Of a stretch of 19,149 bases of DNA, positions 9,001 to 12,000 are shown piece after piece. The stretch is from a virus. Its lineage: Duplodnaviria > Heunggongvirae > Uroviricota > Caudoviricetes. The stretch lies in the IMG/VR virus record IMGVR_UViG_2681813236_000002; one strand, 5' to 3'. Position numbers: made by a program. Each line of letters begins with the position of its first letter. The stretch's first letter is position 1.

Positions 9001-12000
9001 CTCAATAAAATAAGCCTCCACTCCCAGCAACATCTTTGTATAACCAACACGGGCAGATTTAATCAGGTTAACCGTGCGAATCAGATCGTTGCCCATACAG
9101 TTCATGATGCCAACCTGAAACGGCAGTGTTTCCCACCGCCCCGGGGTATAAGACGACTCTTTAGGAAGGTAATAATGTTTATTGGCCCACTGAACTGTCG
9201 TCAGTGGAACAGGAATAATGAGAGATAAAAGCCCTGTAGCTATCGCACCGGCTGCATTAGCTGCCTTCTGCGCGTCTGAAATCATCGATCCACCCGCCCA
9301 CGTTTTCACCGGCCTTAGCTGCAACATTGGAGGCTTTCGCGATTTCAGTTTTCACCACATCAAGGTGTGATGGTGAAATGTCCGGATATTTACGCTGTAA
9401 TGTCAACGGCACACGCACAAGTATCCCCGAAATCTCCTGTGCCACACGTTGCAGAATGAAGGTAAACAGTTCAGTTTCCAGCACTACTCCGTCTTCACGG
9501 GCATTTTTCAGTTCCTGCGCATCTGCCTGCGCTTTTGTGAGCCTGTAGCGTTCATAGTCAATGGTGCCGGGTTGTAAATCTGACTCCGCTGCCGCACGCA
9601 AATCGTCCAGTTCTTTGCGGAGCTTTTCGTTTTCGATATCAGTTTCCCTCTGCGCATACCACTGAATTGCCATGGCAGTATCAAATACAGATTCAATGCC
9701 CTTACTACCTTTGGAGGCGCAAGGGAGTCCCTGAGACTGCCAGCGTTCAATCGTCCGCGGGTCCACGTTGAAAATTTCGGCAAGCCTCTTTTTATTAACC
9801 TTCATGAAAACAACCCATTATCAAATACAAGGCCCGACATGAAAACGCCAGAAAAAGGCATTTTCGGACACTTTCATGTCGGACCTTTACGGATGAAATA
9901 TTAAAAAAAACAAAAAGTTATATTCGAGAAGTACCGACACGATTTTCCCTGAAAAATTTTCATAAATAGTGAAAAACCGCGAGGTCTCCGCCCCGTAACG
10001 CTCCGGATCGCCGAAAAGGACCCGAAAATGATAATACATATCAATTACACTTAAAGGGGGGGTAATTTGTTCACATCAACACTCCGGACCCAATGGCCTT
10101 CTACTCTGGTTTTGCCATAAAATAGTCCTGATACATATTCATATCAGTTAGTCATATACGGAAAAAATATGGGCATTACTATTTTCAGCAGTGAAATACA
10201 GGATGTTGATAGCGAAGCGATGTACAAGAGCTGGCTAGCGACCCATTCCGATGGATTCGTTATTAATCTGCTTAAGTCGGCCAGCGGGAAAGGCAGAACA
10301 AGTGATGCCAGATTTACGCGGATTCATCGAGCCTCATGCAAATCAATCAACCCGTTAATCAGTCCTAAAAATCACGCCAGCTTTACTACTGGCCGATACC
10401 AAAAAGTATGTGTTCTTACGCTTGACGAGGCCGAGTCCACCGCAGGCCAACTAACAGGACTGCCAACCATCCAGAGATGTCATTGGTGTATATAAGATAC
10501 TGCCGTTACGATGGACCTGCCCATTGTGATGGCAACAAAAAACCGCCCGGAGGCGGCTTACCGATAGGATCTGACTATTTATAGATGTCCATCTTATCCA
10601 AAAAATCCTTTAAAGATTTTTCAAAATTCACCTTACTTTCGGTGTAAGAATAATAATTTTGAAAATGTGTATCCAAATCGTTTAGCGCATCTTTTTGGGC
10701 GCTAGTCAGATCATCAACTACGGCATACCCCAAGTATTTGAGCTGTAGATACAGTTCCGATAACTTTTCGTGCATTAACCATTCATCAATATAGTCTTGA
10801 TTTTTTTGGCTAGCCAATACTTCAAAATTAGGTGACTTGGAAACAACCTGACCGTTAGTAACATTCTTGCTTGTGAATGTTTTTGGCATTAGCCCTACTT
10901 CTACATACAGCTTACCTGCTGCTTTTTTGATCTCACGTTTAGCTTTTACTTTCTCTTGTGATTTCCAAGTGCCCATTGCGTAGATAGCTACGCCTAAGGT
11001 TATTGCAGAGAGCACTACAGAAACCCAAGAGGCAATCGCTGAAGTTTTCGTCCATTCTAAAGACTCCCACGCGGCCCTCGCTGCTGACTTAGCAGTCTCG
11101 ATATTTTGGTAATCTAACCAATCCCGTATCATTGATATGTATCCAACATTTGTTTATGAGTTCAGATTTTATTCATCTTTGATACGGATTGTAATTTTTT
11201 TTGTCACTGAACGCATTGTCTTTTCACATATTCCTGCAGATAACCAACCTGCTTCGTCACTGTGTCGACTCGTTCTCTGAGGGTGAAATAATCCCGTTCA
11301 GCGGAGTCAGTAAGTCGGGAGGAGGCTGCATTACCCACACCGGAGGCGGTGGTGGCTTCACGCACTGACTGACAGACTGCTTTGATGTGCAACCGACGAC
11401 GACCAGCGGCAACATCATCACGCAGAGCATCATTTTCAGCTTTCGCATCAGCTAACTCCTTCGTGTATTTTGCATCGAGCGCAGCAACATCACGCTGACG
11501 CATCTGCATGTCAGTAATTGCCGCGTTCGCCAGCTTCAGTTCTCTGGCATTTTTGTCGCGCTGGGCTTTGTAGGTAATGGCGTTATCACGGTAATGATTA
11601 ACAGACCATGACAGGCAGACGATGATGCAGATAATCAGAGCGGAGATAATCGCGGTTACTCTGCTCATACCTCAATCTCTCTGACCGTTCCGCCAGCTTC
11701 TTTGAATTTTGCAATCAGGTTGTCAGCCTTATGCTCGAACTGACCATAACCAGCGCCCGGCAGTGAAGCCCAGATATTGCTGCAACGGTCGATTGCCTGA
11801 CGAATATCACCGCGGTCAATCATCGGCAAAGCGCCACGCTCTTTAATCTGCTGCAATGCCACAGCGTCCTGACTTTTGGGAGAGAAGTCTTTCAGGCCAA
11901 GCTGCTTACGGTAAGCATCCCACCAACGGGAAAGAAGCTGGTAACGTCCGGCGGCTGTTGATTTGAGTTTGGGGTTTAGCGTGACAAGTTTGCGAGGGTG

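What the first reader, a model, noticed from the sequence alone, without database searches (positions are those of the whole stretch)
9802..10010. Lambda-type cos with one substitution in the recalled 12-nt cohesive end and three CATGAAAAC-type cosB repeats
The minus strand reads GGGCGGAGACCTCGCGG..., against lambda GGGCGGCGACCTCGCGG as I recall it, which places cosN at about 9982..9993 and shows the window crosses the virion genome ends. Between cosN and Nu1 are two direct and one inverted copy of a (G/T)(A/T)CATGAAAAC-like element, candidate Nu1-binding R sites; one overlaps the Nu1 start codon. The repeat core differs from the lambda R-element sequence, which together with the divergent FI suggests a packaging-specificity variant.
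Basis: partly seen in the sequence, partly recalled or inferred. Interest (0 to 1): 0.4.

Follow-up and report, generated by a model that had tools for sequence, protein, structure and literature searches.

The report
Phage 21-type cos, one-base variant
This is the DNA-packaging (cos) site of a phage 21-like prophage of E. coli; it matches the well-studied phage 21 site except for one base in the mutation-tolerant half of the 12-base sticky end, so it is ordinary apart from a rare allele that may have arisen by recombination inside the sticky end.

Summary
The sequence observation holds. The minus strand at 9993..9982 reads GGGCGGAGACCT, one base (C7A, window 9987) away from the cohesive end shared by lambda and phage 21. 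The window does cross the virion ends: phage 21 genome position 1 aligns to window 9993, and the next 9,993 bases are colinear without gaps at 99.2% identity.

This is not a new packaging specificity. The small terminase subunit and FI are 100% identical to those of phage 21. The R3, I1, R2 and R1 sites are base-for-base those annotated in phage 21.

Two of them clip the real R1 and R2 boxes (core TCATGTCGGnCCTT). The copy at the start codon is not an annotated R site. The real R3 (9944..9929) was missed.

[quoted passage not shown] The A7 allele is rare: 5 versus about 890 E. coli genome records with a 21-type cos.

The window's right arm comes from a lambda-type prophage lineage that usually carries the cohesive end GGGCGGAAGGCG. 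A7 may therefore mark a recombination junction inside cosN. Interest is low.

The parts
10017..10023 (-). cosQ (GGGTCCT), the packaging-termination subsite, 24-30 nt upstream of the top-strand nick
   Evidence: Same heptamer and same spacing as the cosQ annotated in phage 21 OL657228.1 (42902-42908). It is invariant in the 57 unique 21-type cos sequences aligned.
9982..9993 (-). cosN cohesive-end sequence GGGCGGAGACCT. The inferred nicks lie between 9994|9993 (top strand) and 9982|9981 (bottom strand). The variant base A7 is at 9987.
   Evidence: Position 1 of phage 21 records aligns to 9993. Phage 21 and lambda have C at position 7. The nick positions are inferred by homology, not measured.
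9950..9964 (-). I2, a putative IHF site as annotated in phage 21 M81255.1
   Evidence: Identical to M81255.1 196-210.
9929..9944 (-). cosB R3 (AATCGTGTCGGTACTT), the principal TerS binding site, at cos bp 50-65, with G56 and G59 as in phage 21
   Evidence: Identical to R3 annotated in OL657228.1 and M81255.1. Matches the R-box consensus. Bp 56 and 59 are named as discriminating positions in PMC4669245 Fig 2 legend.
9908..9922 (-). [quoted passage not shown]
   Evidence: Identical to the phage 21 annotation.
9896..9896 (-). Second and last cos difference from phage 21 (cos bp 98, G->T), lying between I1 and R2
   Evidence: Ungapped comparison. It is outside every annotated site. It is shared with E. 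coli E21845, GB089 and 442/2.
9872..9887 (+). cosB R2 (TTTCATGTCGGACCTT read on the + strand), inverted relative to R3 and R1
   Evidence: Identical to the phage 21 annotation. R1 and R2 with their flanks form a 27-nt, 81% complementary inverted repeat, 9829-9855 / 9861-9887.
9829..9844 (-). cosB R1 (TTTCATGTCGGGCCTT)
   Evidence: Identical to the phage 21 annotation.
9257..9805 (-). Gene 1 (Nu1 homologue), terminase small subunit TerS, 182 aa
   Evidence: 100% amino-acid identity to phage 21 gp1, with 1 synonymous change. Pfam Phage_Nu1 E=1.9e-81.
7357..9285 (-). Gene 2 (A homologue), terminase large subunit TerL, 642 aa
   Evidence: 2 amino-acid differences from phage 21 gp2 and no stops. 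Pfam GpA_ATPase and GpA_nuclease.
2187..2561 (-). FI DNA-packaging protein, 124 aa
   Evidence: 100% identical in DNA and protein to phage 21 FI. Pfam Packaging_FI.

Best explanation
The segment 10023..9806 (minus strand) is the complete cos site of a prophage whose head and packaging module is that of coliphage 21. Its parts, in order, are cosQ, cosN, I2, R3, I1, R2 (inverted) and R1, followed by terminase genes 1 and 2.

The mechanism is inferred by homology with phage 21 and lambda. TerS (gp1) dimers bind the R boxes while IHF bends the DNA at I1. This positions TerL (gp2) to make nicks staggered by 12 bp at cosN, and DNA is packaged toward lower window coordinates. The next cosQ-cosN along the concatemer ends packaging. 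Packaging specificity should be the known phage 21 specificity.

The only unusual feature is a C->A change at cohesive-end position 7, the first base of the right half of cosN. It reduces the two-fold symmetric base pairs from 10 to 8 of 16 and removes one G:C pair from the sticky end. Both ends of a virion chromosome would carry the change, so they remain complementary. Because it lies in the half of cosN reported to tolerate changes, it is most likely functionally neutral or nearly so.
For: Identity with phage 21:
- Position 1 of the phage 21 genome aligns to window 9993. The next 9,993 nt align without gaps at 81 mismatches, 99.2%.
- All 12 genes from gene 1 to V are intact. dN/dS against phage 21 is 0.23 with dS 0.020, which indicates purifying selection rather than decay.
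- TerS and FI are 100% identical to phage 21.
- R3, I1, R2, R1 and I2 are identical to the sites annotated in OL657228.1 and M81255.1.
- The R-box consensus occurs 3 times, only in cosB, against 0.14 expected.
- cosQ is present at the conserved spacing.
- cos bp 1-188 differ from phage 21 at only 2 positions, both outside the R boxes and I1.

Tolerance of the position-7 change:
- Feiss et al. 2015 (PMC4669245) state that many mutations in bp 7-12 have minimal effect, that differences in bp 7-12 are common among lambda-like phages (N15 at 9 and 12, Gifsy-1 at 8, 9 and 11), and that lambda and 21 share identical cosQ and cosN.
- Changes at position 7 recur in nature. GGGCGGAGACCT with a 21-type cosB and intact head genes is found in 5 complete E. 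coli genomes, with at least three different right arms and on two left-arm haplotypes.
- The same 12-mer occurs in a lambda-type cos in phage record PhiR70_1, in two other cosB types in IMG/VR, and in a satellite-like island found in 137 E. coli genome records at 99% identity or better.
- A T7 allele also exists.
Against: - No virion-end or packaging data exist for this allele. Function is inferred.
- A7 is rare. It is absent from all 104 IMG/VR contigs with a 21-type cos and from every isolated 21-type phage in the phage collection. It is present in 5 versus about 890 E. coli genome records with a 21-type cos, and in none of about 4,070 records with a lambda-type cos in that 39-mer context. 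This rarity is compatible with a mild fitness cost.
- Position 7 is one of the rotationally symmetric central base pairs, and I could not read the primary mutagenesis paper (Xu & Feiss 1991) to see whether position 7 itself was tested.
- The window covers only 19 kb, so intactness of the whole prophage is unknown.
- PhiR70_1 carries IS elements and a split tape-measure gene, so it is weak evidence of viability.
Confidence: 0.88

Rival explanations
1. Origin hypothesis, compatible with the best explanation: A7 is not a point mutation but marks a recombination junction inside cosN. Everything up to and including position 7 would come from a lambda-type prophage lineage whose cohesive end is GGGCGGAAGGCG, and everything from position 8 onward from a phage 21-type left arm. 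The junction could arise in two ways. One is a crossover with heteroduplex repair within cosN. The other is packaging that starts at a 21-type cos and ends at an AAGGCG-type cos, followed by partial repair of the mismatched annealed ends.
For: - Window 11668..9987 is 97.4-97.8% identical to prophages in E. coli E28 and E300082 that have lambda-type cosB and head genes.
- In 7 of the 8 genomes with this right arm the alignment runs through position 7 and then stops. E28 was read directly as GGGCGGAAGGCG, and FHI_NMBU_03 and C4 match the allele exactly at overlapping coordinates.
- From position 8 onward the window is phage 21.
- A7 is otherwise rare among 21-type cos sites (about 0.6%).
- No other genome joins this right arm to a 21-type left arm.
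- Other alleles that differ from a parent only at an edge position exist: AAGGCT and CGACCG.
- Sites 7 and 98 show all four allele combinations among 21-type left arms.
- Feiss 2015 shows that mismatched cohesive ends can cyclize, can give both alleles in the progeny, and that termination is not cosB-specific.
Against: - The same A7 left-arm haplotype occurs with other right arms (E21845, GB089). A7 also occurs on the phage 21 haplotype with phage 21's own right arm (MS15046). A7 may therefore predate the junction seen in this window.
- A single-base difference cannot be told apart from a point mutation.
- T7 alleles show that point changes at position 7 do occur.
- A 21-type end annealed to an AAGGCG-type end would have 5 mismatches in 12, far more than the 2 tested experimentally.
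Confidence: 0.4
2. The cos is damaged. The prophage is cryptic or decaying, and C7A is a deleterious mutation that impairs nicking or end annealing.
For: - A7 is rare in every collection searched.
- It breaks one symmetric base pair and lowers the calculated Tm of the 12-mer from 52.8 to 47.0 C.
- Prophage cos sites are not under selection while the prophage is dormant.
Against: - All 12 packaging, head and tail genes are intact, with dN/dS 0.23.
- No R box, I1 or cosQ base is changed.
- The allele persists in several unrelated strains with different right arms and intact head modules.
- The literature reports minimal effects of changes at bp 7-12.
Confidence: 0.08
3. One reading: a new packaging-specificity variant, with CATGAAAAC-type Nu1-binding repeats, co-evolved with a divergent FI.
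For: The repeats and the N-terminus of TerS do differ from lambda.
Against: - TerS, FI and every R box are identical to phage 21, whose specificity has long been characterized (PMC4669245).
- The CATGAAAAC motif is not enriched.
Confidence: 0.02
4. The A at position 7 is a sequencing or assembly error.
For: It is a single base.
Against: The identical 39-mer is present in five independently assembled complete E. coli genomes.
Confidence: 0.01

Closest known systems
cos of coliphage 21 (X02501.1, M81255.1, OL657228.1; Feiss laboratory)
   Same: Same architecture and sequence: cosQ, cosN, I2, R3, I1, inverted R2 and R1, then genes 1 and 2. 186 of 188 bp between the left end and the gene 1 start are identical. 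All protein-binding boxes are identical, and TerS and FI are 100% identical.
   Different: C7->A in the cohesive end and G98->T between I1 and R2. The DNA to the right of cosN (the cosQ-cosN spacer and beyond) is not phage 21's. It comes from a different lambdoid lineage.
cos of phage lambda
   Same: Positionally homologous subsites. cosQ is identical. The left half of cosN and the CG dinucleotides flanking the nicks are identical. R3-I1-R2-R1 have the same order and spacing.
   Different: R boxes read TCRTGTCGGnmCTT here and CGTTTCCkTTCT in lambda, with G56 and G59 here against T56 and C59 in lambda. TerS positions 20 and 24 are E and S here and Q and E in lambda. Lambda and 21 terminases discriminate against each other's DNA by about 1000-fold (PMC4669245).
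Natural cosN right-half variants (N15 and phiD326 at bp 9 and 12; Gifsy-1 at bp 8, 9 and 11; mEp213/LLS GGGCGGCGCGCT)
   Same: The variation is confined to bp 7-12, with the left half and nick-flanking bases conserved (PMC4669245; PMC12315714).
   Different: Here only bp 7 differs. This specific allele was not found in the searchable literature. The dedicated survey, Vahanian et al. 2017, Virology 509:140, could not be read.
Lambda-type prophages with cohesive end GGGCGGAAGGCG (e.g. E. coli E28, FHI_NMBU_03, C4)
   Same: The same right arm as the window (lysis genes, a 185-aa ORF and the cosQ-cosN spacer), and the same base A at position 7.
   Different: Positions 8-12 are AGGCG rather than GACCT. 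cosB and the head genes are lambda-type, not 21-type.

Membership tests
Lambda-like cos (12-nt 5' cohesive ends; cosQ-cosN-cosB) | cosN with the conserved left half GGGCGG and CG dinucleotides flanking both nick sites | tested here: met
   The sequence reads ...TTACG|GGGCGGAGACCT|CGCGG at 9998..9977. The left half and both flanks are identical to lambda and 21.
Lambda-like cos (12-nt 5' cohesive ends; cosQ-cosN-cosB) | cosQ heptamer GGGTCCT at the conserved distance upstream of cosN | tested here: met
   Present at 10023..10017, which is -30..-24, the same as in phage 21 and lambda.
Lambda-like cos (12-nt 5' cohesive ends; cosQ-cosN-cosB) | Complex cosB: three R boxes with R2 inverted and an IHF site between R3 and R2, immediately upstream of the terminase genes | tested here: met
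   Searches support the cosB layout. Pfam Phage_Nu1, GpA_ATPase and GpA_nuclease support the terminase genes.
Lambda-like cos (12-nt 5' cohesive ends; cosQ-cosN-cosB) | Virion DNA actually ends in 12-nt 5' overhangs generated at this site | not testable with these tools
   Needs virion end sequencing. Here it is inferred only from colinearity with the phage 21 virion genome record, which starts at this base.
Phage 21 packaging specificity | TerS DNA-recognition residues of phage 21 (positions 20 and 24 = E, S) | tested here: met
   gp1 is 182/182 identical to phage 21 gp1. Residues 20 and 24 are named as discriminating in PMC4669245 Fig 2 legend.
Phage 21 packaging specificity | R3, R2 and R1 with the phage 21 sequence (R3 bp 56 = G, bp 59 = G) at phage 21 spacing from cosN | tested here: met
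   All three boxes and I1 are identical in sequence and position to the OL657228.1 and M81255.1 annotations.
Phage 21 packaging specificity | cosN identical to phage 21 and lambda (GGGCGGCGACCT) | tested here: not met
   C7A. cosN is not the specificity determinant: lambda and 21 share it, and terminases showed no cosN specificity in PMC4669245. This therefore does not argue against 21-type specificity.
Phage 21 packaging specificity | Packaged by 21-specific terminase but not by lambda- or N15-specific terminase; IHF-dependent | not testable with these tools
   Requires helper-packaging experiments.

The most novel reading that the evidence does not exclude
The cohesive end GGGCGGAGACCT is a chimeric cosN allele. 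The mosaic junction between a lambda-type right arm (from a lineage with cohesive end GGGCGGAAGGCG) and a phage 21-type left arm would fall between positions 7 and 8 of the sticky end itself. This would be a genomic trace of heterologous initiation and termination of packaging, or of heteroduplex repair within the annealed ends. It would imply that cosN is a routine exchange point where lambdoid arms are swapped and new sticky-end alleles are created.
Probability: 0.4. Interest if true: 0.35.

Novelty: new member of a known kind. Interest (0 to 1): 0.15.

Why it matters
It matters little for mechanism. It shows that a textbook packaging site, phage 21 cos, circulates almost unchanged in E. coli prophages. 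It also adds position 7 to the naturally variable right half of cosN.

Two practical points follow. Prophage-end prediction and cos-based tools that search for the exact lambda 12-mer would miss this allele, and would also miss the much commoner GGGCGGAAGGCG allele. If the chimeric-origin reading is right, cosN alleles could serve as markers of arm exchange between lambdoid phages, and would illustrate in natural genomes the mismatch-end genetics that Feiss and colleagues demonstrated in the laboratory.

Tried and rejected
It is not enriched and is out of register with the annotated R boxes.
- A new packaging specificity was rejected. TerS, FI and the R boxes are identical to phage 21.
- A scan of one genome per species (genome contigs) for TTACGGGGCGGAGACCTCGCGG gave 0 hits, so it said nothing about host range.
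- IMG/VR 21-type cos sites: all 104 contigs have C7.
- Isolated 21-type phages in the phage collection all have C7.
- No isolated phage has the cosB type of the IMG/VR A7 contigs L109-L114.
- Literature searches for the A7, T7 and AAGGCG 12-mers on either strand found only irrelevant papers.
- No paper was found for the PhiR phage records.
- Vahanian et al. 2017 (PMID 28646648) and Sippy et al. 2015 (PMC5006951) are not held. I therefore could not check whether A7 is already catalogued, or whether position 7 was mutated in Xu & Feiss 1991.
- The per-column conservation alignment of the 21-type cos sites was muddied by a divergent subgroup with indels. I used it only for the invariance of cosQ and cosN.
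- The 50-aa ORF across cos (9887..10039) was dismissed as spurious.
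Full report
**What is in the sequence**

On the minus strand the window reads ...TTTTCGGGTCCTTTTCGGCGATCCGGAGCGTTACG|GGGCGGAGACCT|CGCGGTTTTTCACTATTTATG... The 12-mer occupies 9993..9982. Both a lambda record and three phage 21 records read GGGCGGCGACCT, so the window differs by C->A at cohesive-end position 7 (window 9987).

As a motif they are not more frequent than chance: 10 hits with up to 1 mismatch, against 6.1 expected.

**Identity of the locus**

A sensitive DNA search of the phage collection puts Escherichia phage 21 on top. 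Position 1 of the virion-ordered records X02501.1 and OL657228.1 aligns to window 9993. From there the window's minus strand is colinear with phage 21 positions 1-9993, with no gaps and 81 mismatches, which is 99.2% identity. The left arm is phage 21's packaging, head and tail module.

All twelve genes from gene 1 (the Nu1 homologue) to V are intact. gp1 (182 aa) and FI (124 aa) are 100% identical to phage 21, and gp2 differs at 2 residues. Nei-Gojobori dN/dS over the twelve genes is 0.23 with dS 0.020. The module has therefore diverged from phage 21 under purifying selection and is not a decaying remnant. Pfam confirms Phage_Nu1, GpA_ATPase, GpA_nuclease and Packaging_FI.

**Anatomy of cos**

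I transferred the curated phage 21 annotations (OL657228.1; M81255.1) using window = 9994 - position. This gives:
- cosQ GGGTCCT at 10023..10017
- cosN at 9993..9982
- I2 at 9964..9950
- R3 AATCGTGTCGGTACTT at 9944..9929
- I1 at 9922..9908
- R2 at 9887..9872 (inverted; TTTCATGTCGGACCTT on the + strand)
- R1 TTTCATGTCGGGCCTT at 9844..9829
- the ribosome-binding site at 9816..9813
- the gene 1 start at 9805

Every one of these boxes is identical to phage 21. The consensus TCRTGTCGGNNCTT hits exactly these three R sites and nothing else in 19 kb. The expectation is 0.14, and 0 of 200 shuffles reach 3 hits. R1 and R2 with their flanks form a 27-nt inverted repeat.

Alignment with lambda shows that the boxes are positional homologues of lambda R3, I1, R2 and R1. 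R3 has G56 and G59 here, where lambda has T56 and C59. TerS has E20 and S24 here, where lambda has Q20 and E24. These are the positions that Feiss et al. name as responsible for lambda/21 discrimination (PMC4669245 Fig 2 legend; about 1000-fold discrimination).

The 'packaging-specificity variant' and the 'divergent FI' are simply phage 21.

**The substitution**

Only two bases differ from phage 21 in the 188 bp between the left end and gene 1. One is C7A in cosN. The other is G98T, between I1 and R2. That is 1.1% divergence against a synonymous divergence of 2.0%.

C7A changes one of the central symmetric base pairs. The number of symmetric positions in the 16-bp cosN falls from 10 to 8, and the calculated Tm of the 12-mer falls from 52.8 to 47.0 C. 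Because both virion ends derive from the same cosN, they stay fully complementary.

[quoted passage not shown] Feiss et al. 2015 state several relevant things (PMC4669245):
- Many mutations at bp 7-12 have minimal phenotype, citing Xu & Feiss 1991.
- bp 7-12 differences are common among lambda-like phages. N15 and phiD326 differ at 9 and 12, and Gifsy-1 at 8, 9 and 11.
- The left half, the nick-flanking CG pairs and cosQ are conserved.
- Terminases show no cosN specificity.
- Lambda and 21 have identical cosN and cosQ.

The window keeps all the conserved parts. I infer that the site is functional with phage 21 specificity. This is not demonstrated.

**How common is the allele?**

It is rare but real.
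- All 104 IMG/VR contigs with a 21-type cos have C7.
- Every isolated 21-type phage in the phage collection has C7.
- Among complete E. coli genome records, 5 carry the exact A7 39-mer with the 21-type flank, against about 890 at one mismatch, taken to be the canonical C7 form.
- None of about 4,070 records with a lambda-type cos carries A7 in that 39-mer context.

The five genomes give at least three different right arms, all with intact head genes and the same gp1 protein accession.

Among 21-type left arms, sites 7 and 98 show all four allele combinations. The window, E21845 and GB089 are A,T. MS15046 is A,G. Phage 21 is C,G. Strain 442/2 is C,T. The allele has therefore either recurred or moved by recombination close to cosN.

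GGGCGGAGACCT also occurs in other contexts:
- with a lambda-type cosB in phage record PhiR70_1, although that record has IS insertions;
- with two other cosB types in IMG/VR;
- in an ~11-kb satellite-like island found in 137 E. coli genome records at 99% identity or better; the listed matches include O26:H11 strains such as 11368.

A T7 allele also exists.

**Where the right arm comes from, and a possible origin of A7**

To the right of cosN the window is not phage 21. The cosQ-cosN spacer already differs at 8 of about 37 positions. Window 11668..9987 is instead 97.4-97.8% identical to prophages in E. coli E28 and E300082, which have lambda-type cosB and head genes.

In 7 of the 8 genomes with this right arm, the alignment to the window runs through cohesive-end position 7 and then stops. 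E28 was read directly: its cohesive end is GGGCGGAAGGCG. FHI_NMBU_03 and C4 match that allele exactly at overlapping coordinates. This allele is common, with 155 E. coli genome records and 54 IMG/VR contigs.

The window can thus be read as right-arm parent up to A7 plus phage 21 from G8, with the mosaic junction inside the sticky end. The rarity of A7 among 21-type sites, and the uniqueness of this arm combination, make the coincidence notable. Alleles differing from a parent only at an edge position (AAGGCT, CGACCG) also exist.

Feiss et al. showed that mismatched cohesive ends can cyclize and can yield both alleles in the progeny. They also showed that termination does not require a matching cosB, and they suggested nick translation as a repair route. 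This offers a mechanism.

Against this reading, the same A7 left-arm haplotype occurs with other right arms, and A7 occurs on phage 21's own haplotype in MS15046. A7 may therefore predate this junction, and one base cannot be distinguished from a point mutation. I put this reading at about 0.4.

**Verdict**

This is a correctly located, intact phage 21-type cos site. It carries a rare single-base allele in the tolerant half of cosN. The packaging specificity is the known phage 21 one, not a new one. Novelty is limited to the allele and its possible chimeric origin, and interest is low.

Noticed in passing
window 9987-11668 (right arm) versus 1-9993 (left arm): The window is a three-part mosaic. 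19131-13020 resembles prophages of E. coli 442/2 and E21845. 11668-9987 (Rz, a 185-aa ORF and cosQ) resembles lambda-type prophages of E. coli E28 and E300082. 9993-1 is phage 21. The last junction falls at or inside cosN.
   Followed up: partly
L237 (E. coli E28, NZ_CM143889.1) about 3166-3177; 155 E. coli records; 54 IMG/VR contigs: A common natural cohesive-end allele, GGGCGGAAGGCG, differs from lambda at positions 7, 8, 9, 10 and 12 and is joined to a lambda-type cosB. I did not find it in the searchable literature.
   Followed up: partly
L111 3409(+) and 4287(-); also L113, L006, L130, L142; E. coli O26:H11 11368 NC_013361.1 about 1619.6-1630 kb (L296): An ~11-kb satellite-like island encodes an integrase, an Icd-like protein, a RepA helicase, SSB, PerC, a major capsid protein, a decoration protein and a Nu1-like protein. 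It carries two complete cosQ-cosN sites in inverted orientation, about 0.5-0.9 kb apart, flanking the Nu1-like gene. In the O26 version one of the two sites has the A7 cohesive end. There are 137 E. coli genome records at 99% identity or better.
   Followed up: partly
window 10169-10495 (+) and 10575-11132 (-): Two ORFs lie between the lysis cassette and cos, in the position where phage 21 has bor and a TonB-like gene and where strain 442/2 has sce7726-family and beta-family genes. The 108-aa ORF has no Pfam or PHROG hit. The 185-aa ORF matches only phrog_6169, of unknown function, and is conserved in E28 and E300082.
   Followed up: partly
window 9803-9811 and 9838-9846 (+): An exact 9-nt direct repeat, CATGAAAAC (GTTTTCATG on the minus strand), links the left edge of R1 and the gene 1 start codon. 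It is also present in phage 21. It is not annotated as a terminase site and its significance is unknown.
   Followed up: no
L235/L236 (PV340577.1, Escherichia phage PhiR70_1) about 21670-21710: A phage record (host given as E. coli C) has a lambda-type cos with the A7 cohesive end. The record also has IS4 between E and FI, IS2, and a split tape-measure gene.
   Followed up: partly
L116 and L117 (IMG/VR): Two lambda-type cos sites have T at position 7 (GGGCGGTGACCT), which shows that position 7 varies in more than one direction.
   Followed up: no
window 9887-10039 (-): A 50-aa ORF is listed across cosN and cosB (MYYHFRVLFGDPERYGAETSRF...). It is almost certainly not a gene, but similar ORFs are annotated as 'hypothetical protein' over cos in several phage records.
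   Followed up: no
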